Shown: positions 7,091-34,489 of the stretch, in pieces | Layout: each line of letters begins with the position of its first letter | How positions within the stretch are numbered: the first letter of the stretch is position 1 | NCBI GenBank assembly: GCA_051362555.1 | Contig: CM120648.1 | Location: forward strand, 2,147,721-2,211,720 | DNA length: 64,000 nt | Direction of reading: 5' to 3' | Origin: Lingula anatina | Taxonomy: Eukaryota > Animalia > Brachiopoda | Program-made: the position numbers and the translations under genes | Notes under the pieces: generated by a model | Seen by the model: only the letters and a program-made list of their open reading frames with translations | Told to the model about the DNA's origin: nothing | Database searches by the model: none

Positions 7091-8137
7091 GTCCGAGGCA
7101 AGAGTCATATGATAGAGAAAGGAGAACAGTTTTATCGGTGGTCAAATGAAGTGGAAACGGGGAGGTCAAAAATGGCCTGAGCCCATCTACAGACTGATGT
7201 AAACAATTTTTGATTATTCCAATTTCCAAATTTGTTTTCTGAATGCAAGGTACTCAAATATGCACAAGTCTTGATCATTCCATTTCTAATATGATGTCAT
7301 CAGAAAATTTTTACAAAGATTTGTCCTGTCTTTTGTCCCATTTCGACCTAGAATTCATCTACTCAGACATTCTGAGGTTGTGTCTGAGAAACAAAATGAT
7401 CTTGATTTCAGACCTGTCTGACCTTGGCCTGAAAACTCAAAGCAGCATTTTCAGTGCTTTTGACCTCATCCTAGAGATACAAGTCTTCGAAATTTCCCAT
7501 CTCTGGGGTTTTAAGTCCCCCCCCCCCTCCCCCATGCTCTTTCCAGTCTCCACCTCACATACAGCTCAGCACTTTGGGTTCTTGTATTTTCATGATTTCT
7601 TAAAGGTCCACTTTCATCTTTAGCATCACGCCAAGTTGTGATTTAAAAACCTGTTGACACTCAGCTCTAATATAAAGGAACATGTGTACTGTTATACTGT
7701 ATGTGACCTTCTTATCCTGGCAAGTGCTTCCACATGTGAATATTTAATACATTTTATACCAGATGTTTCTGGCATATTTTATATGTCACAGCTAGGGTTT
7801 TATGATAACAGGGTTCTACAGTTCTTACATTGCTAGCACTAGTACTGCACTGGCCTTAGTAAAGTTATCCTATCCCCTCATTTAAAATGTATATTCATAA
7901 ATTTAGGATGGCTCAATTAAATTTAAAACTTGATTTTCAAGACATGTAGGGATGGGACGCATACCAGTATGATATTCAGTGCCATATAGTTTCCCACATA
8001 TCATGAAAATCAACTTTAAAAAAAATATATATATATATAAATATATTTTTTTTCCTAGTTCAAATCAGACCTAAAAACTATAAAACCCCGCAATTAAAAG
8101 TACCTGCCATGAGTTTAGAAATTGGGTATAATAATAA

Positions 8138-8182
<45 letters not shown>

Positions 8183-8570
8183 AAAGATGTACTCTAAACT
8201 TTAAATACTAAGATGCTAAGATCAGAAGCTCTACATAACATCGCCTCTAGAATTAAATTGCACTAACTAGATAATTATATAAATGGAATAAAATTGCACT
8301 TCCATTGTAAAGGTTAATTTTAGTTGTAGCACTTTGATTGATCATATGACAAATTCCAAATGTTACATTTTCACATACAGTGAAACCACATGGCAGTGGC
8401 TCAGATGTACGTCAGTGAGTGGCAGAGCAGAAATTGATGTAATGAATTGAAAAAACTTATACATTGTACATGTGGATCCTTGCACCTTGTTTAGTGATCT
8501 TATTTGATGATGTTAATTTTTAAGGTATATTTGAGTCAATTACGTACTATATTTTCATTCACATTTTTAG

Positions 8571-11460
8571 GATGAAATCCGCCAGGCGCGACGCATGAGA
8601 GAAATCAACGCAAAGGTCAAAGGTGATCCAACACGACTATGGAACCTGCGAATGAAATTTCTGGAACAAGCCAAAAAGTATTTTGGCGTCCCTTATGCAA
8701 AGAAATACTGGTCGCCAAAAGGTACACTCAGCAGTGCATTTAACATTGTCAAATTATTACTGAATGTTGAGAGTTAATTAAAATTTTTGTTTTCAAATAA
8801 AACATTTTTAGGTCTGTAGGAAAGCTTTCAATTTCTCAAAAAAATGTTCATCATCAAAACTGTAAGATAGCTGAAAATATTTTTGTAAAAAGTTGAAAAA
8901 AAAACATTGTTTGTTGAGGTTGATTTTTTTCTGACATTTTTTGAGTAACACAGAGACCATGCAAAAGAAAATCCAGAAGTCAAGACATCATAATGTTGTG
9001 AACACAGTGATTGCACAACTTCAAGCATCCTTTAACAATGACATTTTCTAGTTCAAATTTGAAACAATGACGACCTTGAAAAATGCATAAATTGACTTTA
9101 AAACATCAAAACTTTCAACAATTTTTGGACAACTCACTGTGTTTGGCTAACTGCATTATATTCTGCCTGAGGCAATCAGATTCCCATCGCAGGAATTCTT
9201 TTGTGTGAAGTTGTTAATAAATACTCTGTAAAATGCCGTACCAAGGCTGTAATGTCAGTTCCTCAAAGTCCCGATGGTTATTTTGATTGTTTTTTTATCA
9301 CACTATCTTGGGTTTAACCTCTTTCTTATCTCTCGTGTCGTCAGCTTTGAACTAAAAGGCAAATGTCATAAACTGTTTGTGAAGGCATTTTCCTTTTTTC
9401 ATTTTCATAATTTATACGTCTTTTTCTGTTTCTTTTTACTGGAGAAACAATGATTTAATTATTTTTTTCTTTTCAAATTTTATTCAAAAATGCACACTTG
9501 AGGAATGTAGGCTTAAACTTTACAATTTCTTCGCTTACTTGAGCTATACCCAACAAAGTTTTAAAATACCTTATTAACAACTCTCAACTGTAAACCGTGT
9601 GTTTGTTTTAACAGCAAATTGGATGAATATGAATAAATAAAGTGTTTCTTTCTGATATATTGTGAAACCAAATGAAAATCCAGTTAACTACATTTATTTG
9701 TATAAAAAATATGATAAGGTACATTATACAATACGACGAAATTCAATAAAATACAAAAAATACAACACAAAACAACAAAATTCAGTACAATACAATACAA
9801 AAAAAAAAAAAAGAAAATTCAACACAAAACAACAAAATTCAATACAATACAACACAACAAAATACGATCCAACAAAGTTTGATACAATACAACAATATTC
9901 ACTACAAAACAATACAGTAAAATTCAGTACAATACAATACAATACAAAAGAACAAAATACACAATACAATACAGTAAAATTCAGTATAGATACAATACAA
10001 GTCCATTGATCTAGCTACCTTCTATCCCCCCAGACCCAGAGTACTTCTCCAGTCAGTTTCTGGATTGCTGTGGCTTGGTGCGCCAAGTGCTCAGAGACAT
10101 GGAGGCGGAGCTGGGGTTCCGGGTCGGCCAGTGGAACCAGGCTTACCAGTTCGACACGCTGCCCATCACAGTGGAGAAGGAGGAAGACATGAAGCCTGGA
10201 GATCTGGTCTTCATCGCGGCCACGTATTACAACCCTAAATGTAAGTGATGGACTTTGTCTCCAGCTATGGTGTGTGTATGGAGCACGGCAGGTGCCCTGG
10301 GCGCAACATAAAGGGCGCCACTTAATGGAGCTGCTGTTTTATGTTTAAATCATCTTAATTAAATTATCTAAATTGTCATTATTTTTTATTTATTTATTTA
10401 TTTTTTGGTTTTCTTCATCAAAATGATGAATTCAAATCAAATATATATAAATAATTATTGTTTGAACAAATTTATTATTTATATGAAAATGACAAATCTC
10501 CGAAAAATATAGTAATGATTGTTGTTTGAGCATTTTGAGTTACTACGATAGCACCAAGCAGTCATATGCTAAGAGCTTCAGTTAACACAGGACAACAGAA
10601 GAGAGGTGTCAGTCTCTGCTTTATAATTTCTGGAGGCCATTGGTGTAAAAAGGTCTTAGGACCCCAGAAGGTTATGGGTATAGGACTTGCTGCCCTCAGA
10701 GCAAGTCTGCTCTTTAAACTCCAAGCGAAATATGTTGATGATTTGGAACCTTGTTCTCATCCCTATCCATGCATGTTTTACGTAACATAAGCTTCTCTCA
10801 GTCCCTATATCACAACTCTAGATCCAAATAAAGACATCAGGCCAGCACGATTTGTCTTTGTTGTTCTCTGTCCTTGATGTCAGGTAGCACCTGGCCTTGT
10901 GATGGTGTTTCATATAGTGTGATGTAGTTTCATTTCCTGAAGCTGTGATGTGATGAAGATGTTTCTTCTCCATGTTTGTTTATGTCAGCCCTGTTTCCAA
11001 TGCTCTGATGACATCCATTATTTGGTCAGCCTTGTGACTTCGGGGCTTGTCCATTCTCAGAATGGTGCAATGGATTATAAATAAATGGATCTAATCTGTT
11101 GTATTTGGATCAGAGATCTAGAGTCAAAGATATGTAAGCTATACATGCACCATTTATTATGGCTTTACTTTCAGAGACATCCTCTTCATTTTCAAATTTC
11201 CTGATGGTAACACTTTGACTTATTTTTTCTGTCAAAGTTAGACCAATTGTGAACAGTACCTTGTTAAACGGTGGTAGCACATGCTTTGATTACACAATGT
11301 AAAGTGCTGTAATAGTTTGGTGTTGCGGTTAAGTGACACAGAGATAAAATGTTAGTTCCTGGTTTGTGGAGATGTCACCTGCATGAAACGTGCTGCATGA
11401 TACACGTGATGATAACGTGATGATTGGCTTCCTTTCTTCTTAGAACTGCCACAATAAGTT

Positions 11461-11498
<38 letters not shown>

Positions 11499-14015
11499 CT
11501 GCACGGAAGAGAATTGGCCATTGCCTGTCTTGATTTACAGACAAGCTGAAAGACAGACAGACAGACAGACAACCTAAGGTATATCACAGCTTCTATAGCA
11601 GCAACTAAAGTATCATTTCTTATCTTGAATTCATCATCAACTCAAACAAAATGAATAATAATTTGCTTGTAGTGTAAAGATTATTTTATTTTTAGAAAAG
11701 CATTTTCTTATTTCAAAAGTGGGCATATCTTTTTTTTAATAATTGTTTCTTTCTGTCTGAAAGGAGACAGCCCTGCCTGACGCGCTAAGCGTTGACTGTT
11801 TGCAAAAATTTCCTCAAGGGCATGAAAATAAGCAAGTAAATTGAACTTTTTCTACTGTCAAACAAGCCTTAAATGGCATCCAGTCACCACAATTACTGTG
11901 CCAGAAATTTTCTAAAATTGGTGTCTCCATTCACCTTGAAATAAACAAATTGAATAAAAATATTCAAAACATGGGGAAATTCTAATTTCAACACTGATGT
12001 GTCACATTATATCAGACAATGATTATAACAGTGTTTGTTGGAGAATCATTTCTGTAATTACAGTTGTAAAAATTGACACCTTCAGTTTTCAACATTTGCC
12101 CTGCAAGTATCTACTTATCAACCCAACCCCCGCCAGCCTGAGCCGGGAATTTATGTGTGCCAGGCATGTAAGCCCTGAGGGAGCGCCTCTAAAAAGACCT
12201 GTTCCACTGGGCCACTTTTGTGTTAGAGCAATCACCGTGGCATTTTTGGTTGAAGTTTATAGTGTACTCCTTCCAGCAGTTTTATTGTTGGAGATATTTT
12301 CTTCCTTGTTGAACCGTTGCCCGAAGAAGCTAACACGGCAATTTACGAACTTCCCAGACTGTGACAGACCTGTGGGCACTTTATAGCATGACTTTTTTTT
12401 TAAATCTTTTTTTTTTCATTATATGATATATATATAAATCTGTGTTTATACTTAACACAAATACCTGATATTTATGAACTTAAACTACTTTTAAGGTTTA
12501 AAAATCTGGACTCTGTTTTTCATGAGCTGCCCTTTTGACCGGATAAGGTCTGCTCAGAATCAAAATTTGATCTAGGTTCTATGCCATTTTTTCAATCTGA
12601 GCAGCTAAGGGGGTAAAAAGTTCTACTTTACTGAAAAATAAAACAAAAAAAAATAATAAAAAAACATTGCAGGACTAATACATATCATTCATTTCTAATT
12701 TTAAAATGTGTGAAGTTACTCATTTGACTACAAAAATGCCATAGATATAACTACATTTGTATACATATTTATTAGAAATTATATTGATTTTCATCTTCAC
12801 AGTTTGTATTCCTTCTTGACCAACACTTGGGCAACGCATTCACTAACAGCACCCTCTACTGTTCTGTACTTCCAGCCAAAAGACAGCGCCATGACATGGT
12901 GCACGTGGAGATATGGCTGGGAGACGGCCCAAAGACGATAGGAGCACGCTGGCAGAGGGGAAAGGTCCAAGTGTTCGACAGTTACCAGTTTGAAGCCAAA
13001 AGTTACCACAGTCCTACATATATATTTAAGTCCATTGACACGTGGCTGATGGGAATATGCCAAAGGTACCTTGATACTTTAGGCTGGTTACATTTATTTG
13101 TTGTTCAGGGCTCCGTAACTCCAAAGCATCGCGAATTGTGATAGTGATATCACCTTTTATTTCGAAGCTATTATATGGGGTGAGTAAATCCTGAGTTATG
13201 GAATAGAGGCGAATCTCCATGCTTGGGCTCAGTCGCAATTCACGATGCTTTTGAGTTATGGAGCCCTGGACAGTCCTCAAACTAGGCTTGACCATGTTCA
13301 AAGTCCATTGTATCACATATTGGTAATTTGATATTTCATCCTCTCTCAGAACATACTAAAACAAAAGTTGTGAAATAAATTATTGATACTTAAATACATA
13401 TTTTTGTGGTCATCACATGTAATAATCAATCAGATTTAAGGCTGCTATTTTTTAACCCCAAAGGAAAACTGATAATTTAACTCTGCATGAAAAGATTTGT
13501 TTTACCCATTAACTTATGTGCTGTTTTGTTTTTATAGCTACTGCCCAGAGCACCCATGGAAGACATCCCGTTATGATCCAAGCAAGCGGTCTGTGTTCTC
13601 GTATTCAGACGACCAGGATGCTGAGGTGGAGGAAGAAGAAGAAGATGCAGAGGAAAGTGCTGGTGATACAGATGACGAAATGGTGCGCAGCTTTGGAGAC
13701 GAAAGGGACTTCAAAAAATACCTTTTCACAGCTGCAGAGGAGGTGAAGGCCATGAAAATGTCAAAGGTCAATGTCAAGGCCACAGCTCAAGCAATCTCAG
13801 AACTCAGTATTAACAGTGTCCAGGAAGCAGATTCCGTCCATTTATCACAGCAAAGTTCAGTCTCAGAAACTTTATGCAACAAGGAAAATGTGAGTGAAAA
13901 GACGAGGAGGAGTCCAATAGGCCCAGATGGCAATCCGTCCGATGCCGACACAGACGGTCAAGGGCAGAATGGGTCGTCTGCCACAGGAAGTGCAGGTGCG
14001 GACAAGGATGAGTAG
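8571..14015 (+). CDS. NlpC/P60-like cysteine peptidase domain plus acidic linker (5' half of the TTLL10 locus, or a separate upstream gene); 5' end unresolved
   Basis: Exons 8571-8721, 10034-10240, 12876-13065 and 13538-(13995 donor, or stop at 14015), all GT-AG with matching phases 1,1,2. The spliced translation ...FLEQAKKYFGVPYAKKYWSPKDPEYFSSQFLDCCGLVRQVLRDMEAELGFRVGQWNQAYQFDTLPITVEKEEDMKPGDLVFIAATYYNPKSKRQRHDMVHVEIWLGDGPKTIGARW... follows the NlpC/P60 motif order GxPY / DCSG / PGDLVF / HVGIYxGxG. Exon 8571 has an acceptor, so further upstream exons are likely; the first in-frame ATG is at 8595. Confidence 0.85.
9722..10000. repeat. Degenerate (CAATA)n-derived repeat immediately upstream of the catalytic-Cys exon
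   Basis: Repeated aatac/aacac/aaattcagtac units. Confidence 0.85.
13106..13268. mobile_element. MITE-like non-autonomous element, family 1
   Basis: ~36-bp TIRs (cagggctccgtaactccaaagcatcgcgaattgtga / tcgcaattcacgatgcttttgagttatggagccctg); related copy at 57054. Confidence 0.8.
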
Positions 14016-14838
14016 TATGATTTGATTGGTGGATTGGTTTGGCTTTGGTGACATGGTGATCAGCAACTTTGGTTTACATACTCTCTTTGATCATGGTTGT
14101 GTGGAAAAAAGAAACTAAAAAACAGGCTGCCATCTTAGAACTTGTAGATTATCACTGCTATGATTATACTGCTATATTTGACTGTTTTCTTTATTTTTAC
14201 CAGTCCCAATCTTATCATGATTCTGCTTTTTAACAGTACATAAGGTAGCCATCCCTTGGTTTTATTAGCTGTCTTTTAAAGATCCATGCTCAGATTGCAG
14301 AATTTTATCTATTGGAGATATGTTCCTGTCTTTTATGTTGGTGAGAAAATTCCATCAATTTGGAAGTTTAGATATAGCATGCAGATATTCTATTATGTTC
14401 TAGTTCTGTCCAAGAGTGTTGATTTTTGCACTGTTTACAGTTGTATTTTCTAATCATATTGTAAGGTTTTTTAGACTAAAGTTTACTTTATTATACACAT
14501 TTTTTTCATGGCGCTAAAAATACAGAAAAGCATTGAAGGCCTAGCAATAATAGTGCCCTGTAAAAAGTATACTAGTTTTTATGAAACGTGTAGTTCACAT
14601 GAAAGATAAAAATGATTTTCTTTTATATAGATAAGTGACTTTACAGATGTTTGTGACCATAGAACATCTGACTCAGAACTTGAATTTATTTAAAAGATAT
14701 TTCTAATTGAAAGACTGCATTTTAGTTCTAGGCATGATAGCTAGATCTAAGAGATGTAGGAATAAAATGATTTTTTAATTTTTTTTTTAAATTTCCATTT
14801 AGAAAAAAAGGACCAACACTAATACTTATACTGTTATA

Positions 14839-14969
14839 CAGGATCATACCATTATGTTTGGTGGGAGGGGGGTTTGAACTGCCCCTTTTGAACAGAAATG
14901 TCCACTCTGACTAAGGAATTTTGTAAAAAGAACCCCATATGAAATATAAAATTGCTGACTGCAAGCCTG
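14839..14969. repeat. Dispersed repeat, family 4, inverted, with a TTATA direct repeat outside the CAGG/CCTG termini
   Basis: Reverse complement starts caggcttgcagtcagcaatt; both flanks read ttata. Confidence 0.55.
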
Positions 14970-16836
14970 TTATACATTTAATTTCTGAATGCCAAGTGTT
15001 TTTTTAGACTATTAATCCACATCACCTGGACAAGTCATCAATAATTGACAGTAACTGTCTGCGACTGAGTTACGTACACACACATTTGATATATGAACAC
15101 TCGTAGCTGATGTCCCCTAATGGCATTGGGAAAACCATCACCTCAGTGTGTAACATGGCAACAAAAATAACCTCATCATTTCAAGCATTGTCAGGTTCAC
15201 CAAAGTGACAAGAGAATGCATTACTGGGAGCTTGTGATGGATTAATCCGTCTCTTTTCACGATAAACTAGATCCAATATTTAGTCGTTGTTGTCGAATAT
15301 AAAGGGATCTCCTTGTCTGCAATACAGGTGTGTATTGAAGCAAGGTTTCTGCTGTGTTTGAACTGATTGTAGGTTTTCTGTGCAAGAAGCACACTCAAAC
15401 TGAACATGGCGAGTTTAGCCCAGTATTATGGTGAAAAAAGGATACCTTTCTGTAATGCAAAACATAGAGTTTGGCACTGTTAAAAATTTAGAGTTTTTTT
15501 TTTTTTTTTTTTTTGAAAGTAAAGACACAATCAGGGTAGGCCCATAGGCCAGGGAAGTTTTGGGGGGAGGTCGAGGAATTAGAAAGCAATTCGCCTCTTT
15601 GCAAAAAATTGTCCAGTTTTGAAACAAAATGTGATTAGGTTTTACGCCACTTCTCAAATCGGGTCAATTAATGAGGAAAACGGGGCCTCTTTTTATGAAA
15701 AATACCCCCCTTCTCCTTTGAAATTTCTTTTATGCTACATTGCTGGACAGTCTGGTTCTTCCAGCAGGGTGCCATGCAGGGGCAGATCCAGAGCTATTTT
15801 CTGACAGTCTTCCAAATTATTTTTATTGATCCATCCTCCATTTTTGACCATCTTCCAACAGAAAAAAGACCCAGAAGATGGCCTAAATTTGCCCCTGCCA
15901 GGTGTGTAAATACAGGTGCATTTTGGCCCAACAATGACAGAAGCAAACTTTCCCATTGTGATAGCTATGCATTCCTACTCAGCAACACTCTGGCACATTC
16001 AGCCCCAGAGGGATCATCATTAATTGACAGGTATAGATGATTGTTTTCAAGAGAATTGCGGGCACTGTGTTGTTGTTATAATGCACTTCCAGCTCAATCG
16101 ACAGGTGGATTGTTCTCCATACAATAAGAGTAATTGCATCAAATATGAAAGAAATGGGAAGTAACTGGCATGCAATATGTGCATTTGCTTCTGTTTCAGC
16201 CAAGCATGTCCTTGTTTGTCTGTCATATGGGCTGAACACATTGTGCCACCCAAAGTTTCAGAGGTCTGTTGTGTTTGTTTGGTAATTAGGAAACCACTTT
16301 GCTAGTAAATAGACCAGTAACACAGAGTTTAAGAGATTAACAGAAACTTGCATCTATTAAATAGAAACAACATAGACATGTAGTTGGTATAGAGAATAGT
16401 TTCTTTCCAGTGCACCATTTTTAGTATTGACTTTTGGTTATAATGCTAATTTTTTTTTAGCATTCATTTGTATTACTTTTGTTATTTAGCAATTTAGATG
16501 TTAACCATGTTTTGTTTGTATATTTATTTTTATTGGAATTTTTTAAATGATATTTTTGCCTGAATTGCCAAATTTATATATAGTACCTCGAATATGTAAG
16601 ATGGATCAAAATTTTAGAGAAGATTGTGTAGGTTAGCAAAGATGGGCCAGACGTGTTAAATGAGTATCTACATGAAAAGGTGAATTATTTATTGGAACAA
16701 CTCAAAAATAATTCATTTTCTTGGTGTATACTTGAACATTAAACCTACTCTCATTAGTCAATGTGCCAGTACTTTATATATTGCACCACAGCACTGCTTA
16801 TCTATAACGCCCTCTTGCAGACGCAATATTTTAGTC

Positions 16837-16842
16837 AATAAA
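16837..16842 (+). terminator. Candidate polyadenylation signal for a peptidase-only transcript
   Basis: AATAAA followed ~30 nt later by a GT/T-rich tract (tcagtgtttctgtattt); lies downstream of the in-frame stop at 14013-14015. Confidence 0.35.
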
Positions 16843-17125
16843 GCCTTAGGCTTATCTCAAGGAAATCTCAGAGTCAGTGTTTCTGTATTTAGAGAGCTAT
16901 AACAATTAAAATAATCCCAGTTACAATCCCTGTATTGATCCCATCCTGCATGCTAGTACAACACAGCTATGGAGCCTTCATTCTTGTGTGTGTTTAATGA
17001 TAATGAAATTGGAGCAAATACTTGCAAGTAGCAATTACCAGTAAACGAAAGAAGCACCTTGTCTTGTTGAGTCTTGGTGGACTTAGTTTGAGGCCAAGCT
17101 GAAGTTCGACTGAAGCCTTTGGAAG

Positions 17126-17186
17126 ATGCTCAATTCAAATATTCGACACGATTTTGGAAGTGTCTACTTGGCTGCCTCTGGTCCAG
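17126..17186 (+). CDS. Candidate alternative first coding exon for a TTL-only isoform (MLNSNIRHDFGSVYLAASGP)
   Basis: ATG at 17126, open for 20 codons plus 1 nt to a CAG|GTAGGC donor. Phase 1 matches the 18794 acceptor. It lies ~290 bp after the AATAAA at 16837. Confidence 0.4.
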
Positions 17187-18793
17187 GTAGGCTCCATTTT
17201 CTTAAGAAATTAATAGGAAATATTAATTTTATTTTATTTTATTCATGATGACTTTTTGGTCTTTAGATCACTATTTCTGACAATTTCTTTGAACTGCTAT
17301 TTGATAATCTTGCCTTGTATCATATGGCCATGGCATGCTTAATATATTTAAAAATTATTGGTATTGACCCCAGATTTCGTGTGTTAAGAAAAGTTAAGTA
17401 TTTAAAGTGAAAAGTTGAACATAACATTTTTAAAAGTCAAAAAAAAAAAAAAAAAATCACCTACCTGCCCTTTGTAACAGAGTTCTCTTAACTGAACACT
17501 GTCTCTGGGAACACTTGGGCGAGGGTTCTTTTCACGGTGGGCAGTATGCTTTACTAGACTAGCCCACTTTCAGAGGTTGACAACTTCCTAGCCCGACTAT
17601 TACATTAGAGATTCACCTAAACTGAGCTCACACTTCATATAACTGCCATTTATAAATGTAGCTAATTAGTAGGAATTGTACTAATGGAAGGAAGTAAAAA
17701 AAAAAAAAAAAACTGTTGCATAATCGGTACCTCTAAAAGAACCAGTTTAGTTGAGTTTATACCACTCAAGATGAAAAGGTTTGTACATTGTAGCTGTTAT
17801 TAAGCATTTGAGTACTTAAAATGTTCTATTGATTCTTTAGCCTTGCATCTTTAAAATTTTAGCTTTGGAAAGATATGACTTTCCTACACTTATTGACAGT
17901 AATGAGTTGATGAAAAAATGGCATAGGTTGAAAAAGTGGTGATTCAGAATTGCTGTGTATATGTTAGGCAAAGGTGACTTGGATACTGTGTTGTATTGTT
18001 ATATTAAGGAAATCAAGAATAATTTTTGCCAAATTGCTGGAGTGGCAATAAAACGTGACACTTTGAAATTTTAAGCATTGGCATATAAGGATGAATAAGT
18101 TTTCACGAGATATTCAAAGATGAAAACTATAGTGTTCAGATTCATGTTTATTTTTTATCAGTTGGGTCCTTAGGATACTACCCCCCCTCCCCATGTACAA
18201 CTGCAATGTGTGAAGATTTTTCTGAGTTTTTTAATTAATTAATTTATTTATTTATCTTTCTAATTTATGTGGCACAAAATGTACGTATCACTCAATGACA
18301 ATTAAAAAATAAAAATAATGACAGGATAAGGAAGATTAATTTAAGTAATGATGATCTTATATTTTTGTACAACTTATCATAGACAGTGACAGGGTTTAGT
18401 TAAGTGCTCTGTTCCAAGATGGCAGCACTGGTGTGGGTGGGGCAGATATGTGTTTTGTTGTAGTCATTAATCATTTATAGGAATTGCTCACATTTCCTCA
18501 CAAAAGAAATATAATTTTGCATCTTTTCTCAAAAGTATCTTACTTTCAAATTATATATTGAATGACTTCCAGTCATTGTATTTAACAAAAAAAAATTACA
18601 TTCTTTTAAGATTGCACAAGGTGTGATTTTTTCAAGTATTCCAAGATGTAGAGGCATAGCAATTCATTTTAAATAAAAAAATATAAATATTAGCTAAATT
18701 AATCTCTTTATTATCTTAGACGCTGCTTGAATTATAAGTGCAAATTTAATCCTCCTTCAATTTATAATGCTGTGATGTTGTATAATTACCCAG

Positions 18794-21026
18794 GTGGTGG
18801 CTCCTCCCCAAATAAGAGCCCCAAGAAAACCGGCAAGAAGACACCAGAGGGTGCTGGGGACAACGGCGGAGGAAAAGGTGGCGGGAATAGCGGTGGTGGA
18901 GGTGGAATGCGGGCACCTAGAACGGTTCTTGCCTCCAACATGCAGCCGACATTCTACATTGGTGGAGGGAATGGGGTCGCCTTGTAAGTTTTCTTTTAGG
19001 AGGGTTAGGCACCAAATAGTTCAGGTTCCTTAGGGTGATTTTCAAGTATATAATTCACCTATAGAAGTGTAAAGAAGAAGGTGACATAAAGGTGCTTTCT
19101 AACAATAACTGTTATTATTTGTTTTAAATTATATGTATTTGATTTTGGTAAGTAGATTTTAATTACAAATATTAACTTTATTTTGTTCCAATTATTTCAG
19201 AGTTGAGGAACCTCTACTGGCTCTGGGTTGGAAGAGGACCACAGATAAAAATAACGACTTCTTCAAACTCAAGTGGACCGAAGCAAAAACTGCCATCAAC
19301 TTTAATGCATTTAGAGAAGGTTTGGGCCTAATTAACTTTTTTATAAATTGAGAATTATTAAGTAAATATTTCTATCACATTCAAAGAACAAACATTGTAC
19401 CAAAAAACTAGACGTATGTTGTATTTTACCATTTTTATTTTTATGACTGATTTTGTGGAGATAAGTCATAATTGTTGAAACATCTTAAAGTTTATAATGA
19501 CCCAGTTGCACCAGATAACCCATTTTTATTGACAAGTAATGATTGATTTTCTGGAAATAAGTTATATTGTTGAAACATCAACAATATATTATGCCTTAAT
19601 GGTACCAGACAACCCTAGGCAATTAAAAAATATATTGACTAATTCCTGAATTTTTCAATTAGGAGAGCAACTTGTAAACCACATTCCCAATGGGCAGCTT
19701 CTGACCAATAAGATGGGTCTTCTCAACTCACTGAAAGAATATGAGCGCGTCTCTGCCGGGGTCAGAGCTCGTGGGCCTAGGATGATGATGTCAGACTTTT
19801 TCTGTGAGACGTACAAACTGGACGAACGGACAGACAGAGAGGCATTTTTTAATAACTACAAACGTAAGTTTTTATATTGGCACTCACGGTGAAAGGAGTA
19901 TATCTATGTTGCTGGTCTTTGTTTTTTTCATATTTATTTTTAAGCATATTTCTTGCACCTGATGTCACTGACACATTTGAAAGATATGGATGTTACATGT
20001 CACCTTTGTGTTTGTATCTATTCTTTGTTGAATTAAAACTGTTACAAAATTTCTATTACCAAAGTGAAGCAGTTTCTATAGTTTACTCAAAGATTTTGTT
20101 GTTTTCATTCAACTTTATTTATTTCAACTTCTTTATACTTCCATAACTTGTAGCGGGAGAGGTGTGGATCTGTAAACCCACAGGTATGAACCAAGGCAAG
20201 GGTATCTATCTAGTCAGAGACATTGAGAAATTTAAAGCCAGTTTGGAAGAAAGAGATGAAAGGCTAAGGAGGCGGCGGGTGAGACCCACTAACATGGGAA
20301 GGATAATACAGAGGTACGTTATACAGAGGACTGGAGTATCATATATTGTGAAAAAAAAAATTCACGTAATCATTGTGTTATTGTACTGCATAACAGTACA
20401 GAATGATAATACAGAGGAACATGGTATCTATTATTGTTAAAATAAACCTGCTCATTTAGTGATCAAAGTTACATGTGCTTTGTAGAAAAGTTTGTATATC
20501 TAACAGCTTGAAGTTCTTTTAGCTCTTTACTTTGAAAAGATACATTTCACGTAATATCTGATTTCATTTTTACATAGATATATTGAAAACCCACTGCTGC
20601 TTGAGGATAAAAAGTTTGATGTGCGGACATACATGCTGATTGCAAGCACCACACCTTACCTTGTGCTCTACCACAAAGGATACGTGCGCTTGTCTTGTCA
20701 GAAGTATGATCACCATAGCAACGATCTGACAGCACATTTGACCAATCAGGTGAGGGAAGCAGAATAAACCTTTGTTTGTTTGTTTGTTTGTTTGTTTCAC
20801 TCACACTTGTCTTTTATTAAGAACTGTTTTCAACCATTGTTTAATTTAGTGCAGTTTCTCTTTAAAAGAGCTGAGTATAAATATTATGAAAATCCATATA
20901 TTACATGTTTATTTGCAAGAACCAAAGAAAGCATTATGCAAGTATGGAATTATTGCAACAAGCAACATTTAGGCAAAATAATTTCAGGTATCTTTAAATT
21001 AAACATTAAGTATTATAACTGTATTA

Positions 21027-21073
<47 letters not shown>

Positions 21074-22453
21074 TGTAGTACATTCAGAAGAAGGACCCCA
21101 GCTACCAGGATGTGAAGGAGGATACAGCCTGGTCCATGGATAAGTTCAATGACTACATCAACGAAAATGTTGCTCCTCACAAAGATCTGGAACAGAACTG
21201 GGTTTATACAACTTTCACGGTGAGTTGGTAAAGGCATAAAATGCATTTCTACCATAAAATCATACTACAGGGAATTTTACTCCTTTTCACAAGCTCTGCA
21301 CAAGTTTGCTTCCTGTCGGAGTACATTTATAATAACCGGTGTCAAAATGACCGTATCATTTCCTTTGATTTTTATTCATTTATTTACTTATTTGTTTCTT
21401 TTTCTTTTTCCAGAAACAAATGCAGCGTATCATCACGCACATATTCAATGCAGTTAAGCCAAAGCTGCAGACCAGGCTTGGCTACTTTGACCTGTACGGC
21501 TTGGACTTCATGATAGACACAGACATGAAGGTCTACCTAATTGAGGTCAATGTTAATCCCGCACTTCACATTAACTGCGAGGCTCTCAAGGAGGTCATCC
21601 CCAGTGTGGTAGAGGAGACACTGTGTAAGCAATACACAAGTACACTGATACTAAGCACAAATAGTATATTTCCATAGTAACTGTTGTCCTTCTATCTGTT
21701 GTGTTACTTGTTTTGTAAAATGGAATTAAACTCTAATAAAAAATTTAGGGAAACATGAGTCAAAGATGCAAAGGATGTTAAAAAATCTTTTACCTTCATG
21801 TTGGCCATTGCCAGAAAGTCCATATTAACTTAGAGGAATAATGTCATTAATCTGTGTTCTTCAACGAAAAAAATTATCAGTGAGCAACTGTTTGATACTC
21901 TTTTCTTCCTTTTCTAGATGTTGCCATAGAGTGCTTTGAGAAGAAAAAGAAAGGGAATTCAATATGGCCCTTGCAGTCACTGAAAAACTTCACTGTTCTC
22001 TATGATGGGGAGTCTGGAAAATATCTCCATCGTATGACAGTCAATAATGGTCAAATACGCACCCAGTCACCAACAAAGGAGGTTCGTACTCAACAAGATG
22101 ATACCGCCACAGTGCCACCTACACTTAAAGAACCTCCTAAGCAACAGACTCCATCTACAGTCCAGAGCCCTGCCAAGACAAGCCCAACAGTGACCACCAC
22201 CACTACAGCAGCATCACAACTGCCTCCAGTACAAAAGCCCACCACTCCACGGCCACGAACATCTAGTCGTAGCATTCCAGCCACGGAACCAACTCTTTCA
22301 TCACCACGGTTACAGTCCACAGAGATCTCGATCCCAGTTACAAATCTGACACTTCCTAACGAGGCAGTGAAGCTACGCCTAACTACAGCCAACCACAACT
22401 CTCAGTCCCATAATGCCAAGCGACCTAAAAGTGGAGGCGACAGAGGAAACTGA
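18794..22453 (+). CDS. TTLL10: Tubulin tyrosine ligase-like 10 (polyglycylase) TTL domain with a Thr/Pro/Ser-rich C-terminal tail
   Basis: Exons 18794-18983, 19201-19319, 19663-19863, 20154-20313, 20578-20749, 21079-21219, 21414-21624 and 21918-22453 (TGA), all GT-AG and phase-consistent. Motifs [72 protein letters not shown] and [13 protein letters not shown]...[22 protein letters not shown] match vertebrate TTLL10 as I recall it. Confidence 0.95.
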
Positions 22454-23187
22454 TGCTTTGTTGTTCTTAGGCAAAATCAAATGTTGTATCCTACGAAATT
22501 CACATAATCATACCACTTTGTGAGATGGACTAGTTAATGCCTTGGCTGTTACATGAGAGAGTCAACTAAATGGAGCTCCTGTGCTTGGCAAGGTTAATTA
22601 ATTAATTAATTACTAACTTATTAATTAACTTACCTAAACAAATATGCAGCAAACTAGTGGTGAACTTATGAAAGGGAGTAAAACTTGTGTAGTATAATTC
22701 CATGTTAAGAGCTCTCAAAGTGAACCAGCTCAGCCAAGATGTGAAAATGGCCTTGCAAATCATGCCACAGTTCAGTAAGGACAAGGGCAGAGAATTACTA
22801 GTCTGTACAGCAGCACATTACAATAAAGAAAAAAGGTCTACTCCTTAGTGTACACAATTAATATAATTGCAGTGATTGAAATACATAGAGAGATCTGAGT
22901 TGCAGCAATTTTGACAGCAGAGTTTATCACAGTTGGCTTTGATAGGTAATCTTGCTGTGGCATTATGCATAAGATTAGAGTTTTTTTTTTTAGTTTGTGT
23001 TCATAAAGTCATTACCAACATGTGGTTGGCTTAGCAATAAAACATATCATCAGGTAAATGTCAATTAAGTTTACAGATCTGTACCGGTGGAGTGTTTGGT
23101 ATTGTCAGTCAGTATATATTTGCTCAAGATGCAAAAGTGGCCAAATCAACTTTTATTTGAATTGTGGGTAAATGTACATTGATAGAA

Positions 23188-23382
23188 CCAGGCTCCAGTT
23201 TCACAAAAAAAAAAAAAAACTTAAGTCAGTTGCCTGGCTTAGTTGACTAGGATTTCCATGAGAGTGCTGTTACACTGCTCCTGATAGGGTAAGATGTGCC
23301 CATCTGACTATGTTACCTTGTAACCTTGGTAATTAAGCTCTTAGACAGGGAACCTGACTTTTTTTGTGAAACTGATACCAGG
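23188..23382. mobile_element. MITE-like element in the presumed TTLL10 3' UTR
   Basis: TIRs cagtttcacaaaaaa...aagtcag / ctgactttttttgtgaaactg. Confidence 0.7.
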
Positions 23383-24513
23383 TCTTGGTCTGTTAAGGAA
23401 CAGTTGAGGTGTATTGTTTATGTTGATCATGTCTTTAAGGAATCTTTGCTGATAGGCTGGGGGAGTGATAGAACTTGTGATTAAGTGAAAGAATCCCAGA
23501 AATCCATTTCAGTACTATTGTTAATTGGGCTTTTCTGGAGTCTTATCCGGAGAGTTAGGTATTTATTAACCTAAGTTACAGTTCAGATGCACTGCAGTGT
23601 CTTTGTTTTCATGTCTACATCCTTGTCAAATGCAGTTTTGCAGACATGGAAGTTTGAAAATATTATTTTGTTACAAATAATTTTTTTATTATACTTACTT
23701 AAATAAATGTCGTTGTGACATCTACAGTCTGCACTAACATCACAAGGTGACATTCATTTAAACAATCTCATCCTTATTTTGTTAAAACAATTAACATTAC
23801 CAAACTAATAAACTCAATTCAGTATACATTATTTTCATTATGTTTAATTTAAATGTGAGGACATAATATACATGGATAATCCCAGTGATAATAATCAGGT
23901 GTGATATAATCCTTTTCAATACCACCATAGTGTGACTGGTATTGAGAAATACATTGTGCATTTCTTTGTTTTCCAATCAAAATTGTTTTCTTGGTTTTGT
24001 TTGTTGTTAGTTTTACCTGAGGAAGGAAATATGCACTTTACAAGTGCTAATAGTCTAAGAGCTATTAATTAAGGTATTTCAACTGTTACAGTTATACTAA
24101 TTGTTTTGTTGTAAGGCTATGATGTTTAGTTTTGTTGACAATTTTAGGTATTATATTAGCATTTTATTCAGTCATGAAACTTATGTTTGCTGTATTAGTG
24201 TTGTTTAAAGATTTTAAGTGAAATTTCCCTGCTAGTTTTTATATATTTTGTTAGTTTTATTTATTTATTTACCAGTATTAAGAAATGGTAATACATAGTA
24301 TCAGTATATCCCAGTGTCATATTATAAGCAGTATTATTTGGATTATTACATCTTGGGTGCTTATTTGTAGTGATCTGTTTTTGTATTGTATTGTGTGGAT
24401 AAAATTTAGGCAAGGATTATTTTCATCATTTGCCAAAGTTAAGTTACTATTAACTAAAAGTAAAACAAAATTCTTTGCCACCAAAATGCTGTCACTGTTA
24501 TTATCTGACTGCT

Positions 24514-33050: not shown

Positions 33051-34489
33051 ATGCGTGTGAACCTAAGGCGCGTGGTCACGTGGTGCGTTGGACTGCCACT
33101 GACGAGCCTTGCGGTGACGTCATTCATAGCTCTGTTAAGGATTCCAGGTAAAATCTTCCATGCTATACTCTTTAAAACTTTATCCAATCTTTAAAACTTT
33201 ATCCAATCCAAATTTAATTTGGCACAAAACATCTAAATTGACAATGGAGTTCTATATTTTATCTTTTACCTGTATACTGATACCAGGGAATTATATCCGA
33301 TATAATTCCCTGCTGATACACACTGTATGTGTGTGTATTTGAAGATATTACATTTTCACATTTCCTGGCGAGATTAAAAAAACGATCCTTTTTAAACCAG
33401 TCGATTATTAAGCATGTTACTTTTACCGAAGTTAAAATATCCATCAGTTTTTTTTTTTTTTATTCTTCAATTTCTTCATTCTCAGATTTCAATATGACCA
33501 ACAGCTATGAAAAACAAGTGGGTTCTATAGGAGGACCGGCTGCCAGCTTATTGTCTACGTCAACAGAAGGTCGACCCAGTCAAAATACAGTCGGGTGGTT
33601 CAACAGTTCTAGTTTATATGCAGAGAGATCGAACGCTGTATTGGCAGCATGTCAAATGCTCCAGTTAAATGACCAGTCCCTGTCATCGTTACTAAGGCAA
33701 CGAGAAGGCATTGTTTCCCCAACACAATTTTTGATCGATCACAAGAACAAGATGTTATATTGCCAAGTACCTAAAGCCGGATCCACCAATTTCAAGAGGC
33801 TACTACTTCTCGCGAGACAGAACGAGAACTCCGGTAGATTGCATCTTTCGGCACTTTCTCCCCACAAAACCTGGCAGGCAACGAAGACTGTTTTTAGTCG
33901 GTTAGAGCCCAACACACCGGAGACGTACGTGAACAGCATTCTGAAAAATTACACCAAAGTTTTGCTAACACGCCCTCCTTATGAACGCCTTGTGTCTTTT
34001 TACCACATGTATTTCGAGGAGCAGCATTATGAAAATGCATCTCTCGCTTATGAACTCAAACGCTTAGTGAAATACATGAAACGGGTACTTAAAAGAATGG
34101 ATCGCGGGAATTGCACGTGGAATGCCAAACCAACATTCAAGGAGTTCGTAGATTTTGTACTCTTCGATTATCGAGGGATAGAAACAAGGAGACTGCACAC
34201 AAAGGGAGTGATAAATGCCCACTGGTTTCCCATATCGAGACTCTGTTACCCGTGCGCGGTTCATTATGACGTCATTGGCACCATGGAGACTCTTGATCAA
34301 GATTTTGATTATATAGCCAAAAAAATTGACATGAAAAAGGGCATAAATTATCCAAGGTATCTTCGGAGGAAATCTCTGAACCTCACAAAATCATATATGT
34401 CTTCATTAACAGGCGCTCAATTAAAAAGATTACAAAATATGTATGCAACAGATTTTGAACTTTTTAACTTTAGCAAAACATTGCTATAA
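33051..34489 (+). CDS. Golgi carbohydrate sulfotransferase, Sulfotransfer_2 (CHST8-14/HNK-1ST, CHST11-like) family, 366 aa
   Basis: Exon 33051-33147 (MRVNLRRVVTWCVGLPLTSLAVTSFIALLRIP, type II signal anchor, phase-1 donor) joins exon 33486-34489; total 1101 nt. Motifs: 5'-PSB YCQVPKAGSTNFKR, 3'-PB TRPPYERLVSFY, PTFKEFV, HWFPISRLCYPCAVHYDVIGTMETL, YATDFELFNF. Confidence 0.92.

What the first reader, a model, noticed from the sequence alone, without database searches (positions are those of the whole stretch)
13995..18794. One locus, three possible products: peptidase-only, ligase-only and fusion
Reading through the 13995 donor gives a stop about 6 codons later (GADKDE*, 14015), followed by ~2.8 kb of UTR-like sequence and AATAAA at 16837. 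Just downstream, an ATG-containing exon (17126-17186) has a good donor in the right phase for exon 18794. Alternative splicing, polyadenylation and promoter use could therefore set the ligase-to-hydrolase ratio. Alternatively these are two tightly linked genes caught in fission or fusion.
Basis: partly seen in the sequence, partly recalled or inferred. Interest (0 to 1): 0.7.

Follow-up and report, generated by a model that had tools for sequence, protein, structure and literature searches.

The report
Peptidase-ligase TTLL10 gene, two outputs
This is the brachiopod TTLL10 gene, in which exons for a cysteine peptidase are spliced to exons for a tubulin glycine ligase; RNA reads show that fused message and also suggest a likely peptidase-only message that ends inside the big intron, while the proposed ligase-only start exon has no RNA support.

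Summary
The window is the Lingula anatina TTLL10 locus: 908 of 911 residues match XP_013402524.1. Four NlpC/P60 peptidase exons (8571-13995) are joined to eight TTL ligase exons (18794-22453).

- **Fusion: shown.** The splice 13995>18794 is in all six RefSeq isoforms and in 14 raw RNA reads from 4 of 6 runs.
- **Peptidase-only message: likely, not proven.** Same-strand RNA covers 14836-16947 in four runs and stops beside the AATAAA at 16837. The remaining 1.7 kb of the intron has zero depth. Exon 4 is 2- to more than 10-fold deeper than exon 5. No poly(A) ends or single-molecule contiguity were seen.
- **Ligase-only exon 17126-17186: not supported.** Depth is zero, no junction was seen, and the motif is at chance level (104 ATG..GT phase-1 candidates in the intron).
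- **Stop 6 codons after the donor: chance level** (P = 0.38).

In the wider family, 51 of 120 listed relatives carry the same fusion, from sponges to crocodiles. The catalytic Cys and His are invariant, and the predicted fold matches gamma-glutamyl endopeptidases (Z about 12). Reviews and a 2025 preprint state that no tubulin deglycylase is known, which makes this domain a testable candidate.

The parts
8571..8721 (+). First in-window coding exon of the NlpC/P60 part (DEIRQARR...YWSPK). The 5' exons of RefSeq isoforms X1/X2 are not in the window.
   Evidence: tblastn and exon chain. Joint 8719>10032 (cut +2): X1 5 reads, X7 2 reads.
10034..10240 (+). NlpC/P60 exon carrying the catalytic-Cys motif D-C-C-G-L (Cys codons 10066-10071).
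   Evidence: Pfam PF00877 24.1 bits against a cut-off of 23. Cys-Cys present in 100 of 100 aligned relatives. Joint 10240>12876: X1 19, X4 1, X7 4, X8 1 reads. Codon positions.
12876..13065 (+). NlpC/P60 exon carrying the conserved His residues (H at 12890-12892 and H-V-E at 12902-12910).
   Evidence: H137 in 99 of 99 and H133 in 98 of 99 aligned relatives. Joint 13063>13536 (cut +2): X1 4 reads.
13538..13995 (+). Last peptidase-side exon, an acidic, probably disordered linker. It ends at the donor CAG|gtgcgg in phase 1.
   Evidence: Exon chain. Depth 3.8-11.7 in bin 13684-13875.
13996..14015 (+). Read-through tail. It completes Gly, adds A-D-K-D-E, and stops at TAG 14013-14015.
   Evidence: Sequence. 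Reads beyond the donor: X4 depth 4.7 in 14068-14259 and X3 0.38. X7 has 6 reads at 14083-14104 (tables 3 and 4).
14016..16860 (+). Likely 3' UTR of a peptidase-only mRNA, ending near the AATAAA at 16837-16842. It contains a dispersed repeat at about 15776-15898. Coverage is patchy over 14068-14835.
   Evidence: Same-strand depth in every bin from 14836 to 16563 in X1-X4, except 16180-16371 in X4, reaching 16947 in X2 and X3. Depth is zero from 16948 on. No Pfam hit for its ORFs. Poly(A) signals listed.
17126..17186 (+). It is a chance-level motif with no RNA support.
   Evidence: One of 104 ATG..GT phase-1 candidates, 4 of which have a donor score of 7 or more. Depth 0 in X1-X4. No joint to 18794 was listed.
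18794..18983 (+). First ligase-side exon (Gly/Ser/Lys-rich linker, then ...[13 protein letters not shown]). It is the acceptor for the 13995 donor.
   Evidence: Joint 13992>18791 (cut +3, GT..AG): X2 2, X3 4, X4 2 and X7 6 reads; X1 0 and X8 0. Present in all six RefSeq isoforms.
19201..22453 (+). Seven further TTL (ATP-grasp ligase) exons: 19201-19319, 19663-19863, 20154-20313, 20578-20749, 21079-21219, 21414-21624 and 21918-22453 (stop TGA).
   Evidence: Exon chain with GT-AG at every intron; 908 of 911 residues equal to XP_013402524.1. PF03133 171.5 bits on that protein. Joints 18983>19201 (X4 4 reads) and 21624>21918 (X7 8 reads).

Best explanation
One TTLL10 gene joins NlpC/P60 cysteine-peptidase exons to TTL ligase exons by the splice 13995>18794. 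It likely also makes a peptidase-only mRNA when that donor is not used, with translation stopping 6 codons later and the RNA probably ending near the AATAAA at 16837.

**Shown:**
- the exon chain;
- the fusion junction in RNA;
- strand-matched RNA inside the intron up to about 16.9 kb and none beyond;
- an excess of peptidase-exon RNA over ligase-exon RNA in three poly(A)+ runs;
- an NlpC/P60 fold with invariant Cys and His.

**Inferred:**
- the intronic RNA is continuous with exon 4 and polyadenylated;
- the peptidase would hydrolyse the gamma-glutamyl-linked glycine (or glutamate) side chains that TTLL enzymes add to tubulin tails;
- splice-versus-polyadenylation choice would therefore set the ratio of hydrolase alone to hydrolase tethered to ligase.

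No ligase-only message starts at 17126.
For: **Identity**
- The exon at 10015-10248 hits Lingula anatina TTLL10 isoform X3 at 97% identity.
- The spliced window CDS matches it at 908 of 911 residues.

**Fusion**
- All six RefSeq isoforms contain ...[10 protein letters not shown].
- Joint 13995>18794 reads: X2 2, X3 4, X4 2, X7 6.

**Peptidase-only message (stranded runs; gene strand = first_mate_on- column)**
- Depth in bin 13684-13875 (exon 4) is 6.9, 8.3, 11.7 and 3.8 for X1-X4.
- The two bins holding exon 5 have 0/0, 1.2/1.35, 1.18/0.02 and 0.77/1.3.
- Intron bins 14836-16563 are non-zero in all four runs, except 16180-16371 in X4, with depth up to 7.5.
- X3 is non-zero in every bin from 13876 to 16947.
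- All nine bins over 16948-18675 are zero in all four runs.
- Other introns (10585-12135, 17306-18339) are zero in X1, X4, X7 and X8.
- X1 has 19 reads on joint 10240>12876 but none on 13995>18794.

**Comparative**
- The Dreissena GenBank peptidase model ends 4 residues past the same boundary. The Mytilus californianus RefSeq peptidase-only protein ends 3 residues past it.
- 51 of 120 listed relatives are fusions, and the peptidase is N-terminal in all 51.

**Enzyme**
- PF00877 scores 24.3 bits against a cut-off of 23, and PF03133 scores 171.5 bits.
- Cys70/Cys71 are present in 100 of 100 relatives and His137 in 99 of 99.
- In the AF2 model of the amphioxus orthologue, nearly all 10-residue blocks of the domain (about residues 41-240) have mean pLDDT of 85 or more.
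- All leading Foldseek and VIA rows are NlpC/P60 hydrolases, with Z up to 12.2.
Against: - Depth is low throughout; only 6-26% of each run was read.
- X1 and X2 have zero depth over 14068-14835, so continuity from exon 4 to the 14836-16947 block is seen only in X3 and partly in X4.
- The gap could instead reflect an unlisted UTR intron (a candidate is AAG|gtagcc at 14244 to ..tacag| at 14842), haplotype divergence beyond the 95% cut-off, or a separate transcript.
- No poly(A)-tailed loose ends near 16860 were among the rows shown; 19 loose-end rows were not shown.
- RefSeq models no peptidase-only isoform.
- Protein searches with exon 4 found only the fusion cluster.
- The third residue of the canonical NlpC/P60 triad appears to be Gly in this family. 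This is my motif reading and was not checked on coordinates.
- The substrate is entirely inferred.
Confidence: 0.6

Rival explanations
1. Only the fusion mRNA is a real product. The RNA over 14016-16900 would be a partly retained intron, a nuclear by-product, or an independent non-coding or repeat-driven transcript that happens to lie in the intron on the same strand.
For: - Depth is zero over 14068-14835 in X1 and X2.
- A dispersed repeat at 15776-15898 shows reads on both strands and many loose ends.
- No poly(A) ends or 13995-linked alternative joints were listed.
- No peptidase-only model exists in RefSeq or in the protein collection.
- ORFs in the block have no Pfam match.
Against: - This does not explain why exon 4 is 2- to more than 10-fold deeper than exon 5 in poly(A)+ libraries. 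In such libraries 3' bias should favour the ligase exons.
- It does not explain 19 reads against 0 on joints in X1.
- Outside the repeat the coverage is strand-specific. It stops at the bin with AATAAA, and the other introns are empty.
- X3, X4 and X7 have reads directly past the donor.
Confidence: 0.2
2. These are two adjacent genes, a peptidase gene ending near 16860 and a ligase gene. The 13995>18794 join would be an occasional conjoined read-through transcript.
For: - Peptidase exons outnumber ligase exons in X1-X3.
- Stand-alone peptidase genes are annotated in oyster (413-496 aa, five isoforms), Mya, amphioxus, Salpingoeca and rotifers.
- Dreissena and Mytilus have split models in some annotations.
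Against: - No ligase-side 5' exon or start was seen. Depth is zero for 1.7 kb upstream of 18794, and the only joint into 18794 comes from 13995.
- In X7 and X8 the ligase and peptidase exons are at similar depth.
- The fusion is conserved in 51 of 120 listed relatives, from sponges and cnidarians to lamprey, coelacanth and crocodile.
Confidence: 0.12
3. The reader's full three-product model holds, including a ligase-only mRNA that starts at the ATG exon 17126-17186 spliced to 18794.
For: - The frame and donor are compatible.
- Some annotations of bivalve loci start a ligase-only model 3-6 residues before the same boundary.
- RefSeq isoform X6 (785 aa) starts inside exon 3 and lacks the catalytic Cys. 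A peptidase-dead ligase form is therefore predicted, by another route.
Against: - Depth is zero over 16948-18675 in X1-X4. In one search, X8 has none over 16789-18339 and X7 only 0.07 in bin 16789-17305.
- No 17186>18794 joint was listed.
- The motif is one of 104 candidates.
- Sampling was shallow and covered few samples, so a rare or tissue-specific form is not excluded.
Confidence: 0.05

Closest known systems
TTLL10, the tubulin polyglycylase (elongase) of the TTL-like ATP-grasp family
   Same: - The TTL domain scores PF03133 171.5 bits.
- It is 44-54% identical over about 400 residues to lamprey, coelacanth, axolotl, caecilian and crocodile proteins that NCBI labels TTLL10.
- RefSeq names the Lingula gene TTLL10.
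   Different: - It carries an N-terminal NlpC/P60 domain.
- The enzymes studied biochemically do not seem to include one. The Xenopus construct is residues 105-570 (passage in PMC12340829). That the mouse and human proteins lack it is my recollection, not a call.
- Orthology was not tested with a tree that includes other TTLL paralogues.
Bacterial NlpC/P60 (MEROPS C40) D,L-endopeptidases such as MepS, RipA/RipB, LytE, CwlO and SagA
   Same: - The papain-like fold matches: VIA Z 10-12.2, rmsd 2.5-3.3 over 111-129 residues; Foldseek probability 1.00.
- The D-C-x-G Cys motif and the PGDLVF motif align with chain 4xcm (weak, E 0.48).
- These enzymes cut an isopeptide bond at the gamma-carboxyl of glutamate. 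That is established knowledge, and it is the same bond type as the tubulin side-chain branch point.
   Different: - The sequence is very divergent. A profile of the family finds no PDB NlpC/P60 chain at E of 1 or less when linkers are included.
- The proteins are eukaryotic and part of a tubulin-modifying enzyme.
- The third triad position appears to be Gly (my reading).
- The substrate is unknown.
Glutathionylspermidine synthetase/amidase, a bifunctional enzyme with an N-terminal CHAP papain-like amidase and a C-terminal ATP-dependent ligase (recalled, not from a call)
   Same: The design is the same: a Cys-His amidase fused in front of an ATP-dependent amide ligase, so one protein makes and breaks the same kind of bond.
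   Different: It acts on a small-molecule substrate and is bacterial or kinetoplastid. No sequence comparison was made here. It offers no alternative-mRNA uncoupling of the two halves.
Known tubulin erasers: CCP/AGBL deglutamylases, TMCP/MATCAP and vasohibins
   Same: They would play the same role, removing tail modifications (CCP and TMCP as named in PMC11244163; vasohibin in PMC10318531).
   Different: Their folds differ: M14 and other metallopeptidases, and transglutaminase-like vasohibin. None is fused to its opposing ligase. None removes glycine.
Intronic polyadenylation that yields a truncated protein isoform (recalled examples: secreted versus membrane IgM, soluble receptor forms)
   Same: - A moderate donor (7 of 9 consensus positions) competes with a downstream AATAAA in a long intron.
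- The read-through ORF stops quickly.
   Different: Here the choice would separate two opposing enzyme domains. Cleavage-site reads were not seen.

Membership tests
NlpC/P60 (Pfam PF00877, MEROPS C40) | Match to the family HMM above the curated cut-off | tested here: met
   Lingula XP_013402524.1 scores 24.3 bits against a cut-off of 23, and the exon alone 24.1. The match is marginal: the amphioxus, Salpingoeca and Andalucia relatives score 19.5-20.8, below the cut-off.
NlpC/P60 (Pfam PF00877, MEROPS C40) | Papain-like alpha+beta fold superposable on solved NlpC/P60 domains | tested here: met
   The AF2 model of the amphioxus orthologue P0024 has block-mean pLDDT of 85 or more over nearly all of residues 41-240. 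All leading Foldseek rows are NlpC/P60 hydrolases, with target TM 0.6-0.7. VIA Z is 12.2 to 10 for 32 rows. The Lingula protein itself was not folded.
NlpC/P60 (Pfam PF00877, MEROPS C40) | Catalytic Cys (D-C-x-G) and catalytic His conserved | tested here: met
   D69-C70-C71 are present in 100 of 100 relatives, H137 in 99 of 99 and H133 in 98 of 99. LDCC aligns to LDCS of 4xcm (E 0.48).
NlpC/P60 (Pfam PF00877, MEROPS C40) | Third polar residue completing the triad | tested here: inconclusive
   By motif position (His +13) the family has Gly150, in 95 of 99 relatives. Which residue, if any, takes the role was not checked on coordinates.
NlpC/P60 (Pfam PF00877, MEROPS C40) | Hydrolysis of a gamma-glutamyl or related amide bond | not testable with these tools
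   This needs an enzyme assay.
TTLL10 polyglycylase | TTL ATP-grasp catalytic domain | tested here: met
   PF03133 171.5 bits over residues 448-747. TTL and TTLL6/7/11 structures are hit at 1e-23 to 7.5e-09.
TTLL10 polyglycylase | Orthology to vertebrate TTLL10 rather than another TTLL clade | tested here: inconclusive
   Identity to proteins labelled TTLL10 is 44-54%, and NCBI names the gene TTLL10. No tree with paralogues was made. Some relatives are labelled 'beta-tubulin polyglutamylase'.
TTLL10 polyglycylase | Glycine chain elongation on tubulin | not testable with these tools
   This needs an assay.
Intronic-polyadenylation isoform | RNA reads running through the unspliced donor | tested here: met
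   X4 has depth 4.7 in 14068-14259 and X3 0.38-1.03 over 14068-14835. X7 has 6 reads at 14083-14104. X1 and X2 have none.
Intronic-polyadenylation isoform | Coverage ending at a poly(A) signal, with poly(A)-tailed reads | tested here: inconclusive
   Coverage ends in bin 16756-16947, which holds the AATAAA at 16837, and is zero beyond. No tailed loose ends were shown.
Intronic-polyadenylation isoform | Single molecules linking upstream exons to the intronic 3' end | not tested
   Only short reads were available, and both read-laying runs were used.
Alternative first exon giving a ligase-only mRNA | RNA coverage of 17126-17186 and a joint 17186>18794 | tested here: not met
   Depth is 0 in X1-X4 over 16948-18675. 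In X7 and X8 the only depth is 0.07, in X7's bin 16789-17305. The joint was not listed in either call.

The most novel reading that the evidence does not exclude
The NlpC/P60 domain fused to TTLL10 across animals, and free-standing in others and in flagellated protists, is the missing tubulin deglycylase: a gamma-glutamyl isopeptidase that trims glycine, or glutamate, side chains. It would be ancestrally tethered to the ligase that builds those chains. Lingula would tune eraser against writer by choosing between the 13995>18794 splice and intronic polyadenylation.
Probability: 0.25. Interest if true: 0.9.

Novelty: new variant of a known kind. Interest (0 to 1): 0.62.

Why it matters
Tubulin glycylation controls the stability and beating of cilia and sperm tails, and no enzyme that removes it is known. 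This is stated in passages of PMC12340829 (2025), PMC11244163 (2024) and PMC13308552 (2026).

A strictly conserved Cys-His amidase of the gamma-glutamyl-endopeptidase fold sits on the polyglycylase itself in animals from sponges to crocodiles. That gives a concrete protein to test as the eraser.

The locus also offers a simple, checkable way to change the balance between hydrolase and ligase: splicing against polyadenylation in one intron.

My full-text searches found no paper holding NlpC together with TTLL10, TTLL or glycylation. Two Aravind-lab papers that might mention the fusion were not held, so prior notice cannot be excluded.

Tried and rejected
- **RNA run index:** no RNA holder was listed. 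The runs laid came in by species label.
- **Ligase-only exon 17126-17186:** rejected as a chance-level motif with no reads.
- **'Stop 6 codons after the donor' as a signal:** rejected. Background P is 0.38.
- **Protein searches with exon 4 plus its read-through tail:** the 'longer' search found only the RefSeq fusion cluster, and the 'near' search found nothing. No independently assembled peptidase-only ORF turned up.
- **Family profile against PDB sequences:** there was no NlpC/P60 hit with linkers included, and only a weak one (4xcm, E 0.48) with domain-only sequences. Fold search was needed.
- **ORFs inside 15583-16285:** no Pfam match, so no sign of a separate coding gene in the intron.
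- **N-terminal 78 residues of RefSeq isoform X1, and the short X3/X4 heads:** not found in the window.
- **Whole genome:** not held, so the second 'TTLL10-like' 395-aa RefSeq model could not be located.
- **Earlier findings of this scan:** none.
- **Papers:** PMC151301 and PMC3268129 were not held.
- **ESM Atlas:** gave only leads, eukaryotic NlpC/P60 clusters with commonest phyla Chordata and Fornicata.
- **A splice 13995>14842 or a UTR intron 14245-14841:** considered as an explanation for the coverage gap. Neither joint was listed, so this stays open.

Full report
**What the sequence holds**

- An exon ends at 13995 with CAG|gtgcgg, one base into a codon.
- Reading on gives G-A-D-K-D-E and TAG at 14013-14015.
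- AATAAA lies at 16837.
- An ATG at 17126 opens 61 nt ending CAG|gtaggc at 17186 in the same phase.
- The acceptor cccag| precedes 18794.

Taken alone, these features are not unusual.
- A stop within six codons has a background probability of 0.38 in this intron, and it follows 5 of the gene's 11 donors.
- The 4798-nt intron (34% G+C) holds 104 ATG..GT phase-1 candidates.
- There are five AATAAA hexamers.

**What the locus is**

The exon at 10015-10248 matches Pfam NLPC_P60, and downstream exons match TTL. A search with that exon returns 'protein polyglycylase TTLL10 isoform X3 [Lingula anatina]', XP_013402524.1, at 97% identity.

I chained twelve exons with GT-AG borders:
- peptidase side: 8571-8721, 10034-10240, 12876-13065, 13538-13995;
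- ligase side: 18794-18983, 19201-19319, 19663-19863, 20154-20313, 20578-20749, 21079-21219, 21414-21624, 21918-22453.

The chain reproduces the RefSeq protein at 908 of 911 residues from DEIRQ to the stop. The window is therefore the brachiopod TTLL10 locus on another haplotype. The 5' exons of isoforms X1/X2 are not in the window.

All six RefSeq isoforms (785-989 aa) differ only at the N-terminus and carry the 13995>18794 join (...[10 protein letters not shown]). None ends in GADKDE and none starts MLNSNIRHDF. Isoform X6 starts at a Met inside exon 3 and so lacks the catalytic-Cys exon.

**RNA evidence**

No indexed RNA holder was listed. Nine raw-read RNA runs with the same species label were offered, and I laid six of them.

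On 8000-23500 I laid X1, X4, X7 and X8, with 6-26% of each run read. Joint reads were:

| Joint | X1 | X4 | X7 | X8 |
|---|---|---|---|---|
| 8719>10032 | 5 | 0 | 2 | 0 |
| 10240>12876 | 19 | 1 | 4 | 1 |
| 13063>13536 | 4 | 0 | 0 | 0 |
| 13995>18794 | 0 | 2 | 6 | 0 |
| 18983>19201 | 0 | 4 | 0 | 0 |
| 21624>21918 | 0 | 0 | 8 | 0 |

Introns at 9034-9550, 10585-12135 and 17306-18339 had zero depth in all four runs.

On 13300-19050 I laid X1-X4, which behave as stranded libraries with the gene's exons in the first_mate_on- column.
- The fusion joint had 0, 2, 4 and 2 reads in X1-X4. Counting X4 once, that makes 14 reads in 4 of 6 runs.
- No other joint into 18794 was listed.
- Depth was zero in all nine bins from 16948 to 18675 in all four runs. 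The 17126-17186 exon is therefore unsupported in these samples.

The first 2.9 kb of the intron, in contrast, is transcribed on the gene's strand.
- Bins from 14836 to 16563 are non-zero in all four runs, except 16180-16371 in X4, with depth up to 7.5.
- X2 and X3 reach the bin 16756-16947, which holds the AATAAA.
- X3 is non-zero in every bin from 13876 to 16947.
- X4 has depth 4.7 at 14068-14259, directly past the donor. Its deepest exon-4 bin is 3.8.
- X7 has six reads at 14083-14104 (tables 3 and 4).

Exon 4 (bin 13684-13875) stands at 6.9, 8.3, 11.7 and 3.8 in X1-X4. The two bins that hold exon 5 stand at 0/0, 1.2/1.35, 1.18/0.02 and 0.77/1.3. In X7 and X8 the two halves are at roughly similar depth. 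Poly(A)-selected libraries favour 3' ends, so an excess of 5' peptidase exons implies transcripts that end before 18794.

**Limits of that evidence**

- Depth is low.
- X1 and X2 have no reads over 14068-14835. Possible causes are haplotype divergence beyond the 95% cut-off (most laid reads are only 95-99% alike), low-complexity runs that the tool skipped, an unlisted UTR intron (candidate AAG|gtagcc at 14244 to tacag| at 14842), or a separate transcript.
- A dispersed repeat at 15776-15898 attracts reads on both strands.
- No poly(A)-tailed ends were shown.
- No protein ending in the read-through tail exists in the collection searched.

I therefore rate the peptidase-only mRNA as likely, at about 0.6, and not shown.

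**Comparative picture**

Of the 120 best relatives of the peptidase exon that were listed (315 passed the threshold), 51 also carry a TTL domain. The peptidase is N-terminal in all 51, and 69 lack the TTL domain, many of them fragments.

- Fusions occur in sponges, cnidarians, annelids, molluscs, echinoderms, hemichordates, lamprey, coelacanth, axolotl, caecilians and crocodilians.
- Stand-alone forms occur in amphioxus, oysters, Mya, rotifers, flatworm, Salpingoeca and Andalucia.

The same boundary is treated in three ways by annotators.
- Dreissena RefSeq fuses the locus (1295 aa). GenBank splits it into a peptidase model ending 4 residues past the boundary and a ligase model starting 6 residues before it.
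- The Mytilus californianus RefSeq peptidase-only protein ends 3 residues past the boundary at which M. trossulus continues into the ligase.
- Gar has an older fused model and a newer short one.

This fits a widespread dual output or repeated fission. It does not prove either.

**The peptidase**

- The family is strongly constrained: D-C-C in 100 of 100 relatives, His137 in 99 of 99 and His133 in 98 of 99.
- The Pfam match is marginal, at 24.3 against 23 bits.
- Sequence profiles barely reach solved structures.
- The AF2 model of the amphioxus orthologue has block-mean pLDDT of 85 or more over nearly all of residues 41-240.
- That model superposes on NlpC/P60 peptidoglycan D,L-endopeptidases and related amidases: Foldseek probability 1.00 with target TM 0.6-0.7, and VIA Z 10-12.2.

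These enzymes cut the isopeptide bond at the gamma-carboxyl of glutamate (established knowledge). Tubulin glycine and glutamate side chains hang from the same kind of bond.

**How it most likely works**

- **Shown:** one gene encodes a Cys-His amidase in front of a TTLL10-type ligase.
- **Inferred:** the amidase trims the side chains that TTLL enzymes build. The fused form keeps both activities on one molecule, and the intron-terminated mRNA supplies free hydrolase. The moderate donor at 13995 competes with the AATAAA at 16837 to set the ratio.

A recalled parallel is glutathionylspermidine synthetase/amidase, which fuses a papain-like amidase to an ATP-dependent ligase.

**Novelty**

- The fusion model is already in RefSeq.
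- The peptidase domain of TTLL10 was not mentioned in any paper my searches could reach: NlpC with TTLL10, TTLL or glycylation gave 0 papers each. NlpC with tubulin gave 42 papers; 15 were listed, and I checked passages in two without finding it.
- Passages in three papers say the deglycylating enzyme is unknown.
- Two possibly relevant papers were not held.

The isoform finding is modest. The candidate eraser is what makes the locus worth a bench test.

Noticed in passing
window 15776-15898: A dispersed repeat lies inside the intron/UTR. Reads fall on both strands, there are many polymorphic positions, and dozens of reads have loose ends on both sides in all six runs.
   Followed up: partly
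window 13104-13185 (intron 3): Short stretch where reads are flanked by foreign sequence on both sides (X1 10 and 9 reads, X4 21 and 20). An 'opposite strands' joint 13141/13244 is also present. It is probably a repeat or hairpin element expressed from elsewhere.
   Followed up: no
window 12573 (intron 2): Seven X8 reads cover this intronic site, about 300 nt upstream of exon 3. This could be the alternative first exon of RefSeq isoform X6, which starts at a Met in exon 3 and lacks the catalytic Cys.
   Followed up: no
window 33317-34489 (+): Intronless 390-codon open frame with a Sulfotransfer_2 domain (PF03567, E 2.7e-41). It is likely a carbohydrate sulfotransferase gene.
   Followed up: partly
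window about 26.9-29.7 kb (-), 37.2-40.1, 45.0-47.7, 51.4-53.9 and 57.7-60.8 kb (+): Tandem array of about five copies of a small multi-exon gene. The exon peptides recur (…SRYMHRAGVGLGITQ…, …ISYMIMSIISAVISW…, …FVAFTEGVIAVISSAxCCHGVCCC…), followed by a Gln/Pro-rich tail. Four of these exon pieces had no Pfam match.
   Followed up: partly
window 22993-23500: High read depth on both strands, with loose ends, just downstream of the TTLL10 3' end. It is a repeat or another transcript.
   Followed up: no
RefSeq XP_013402501.1 (P0122), not in window: A 395-aa 'TTLL10-like' model on the same NCBI contig differs from the C-terminal ligase part by one residue. It is either a partial duplicate or an assembly haplotig. 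tblastn shows only one set of TTL exons in this window.
   Followed up: partly
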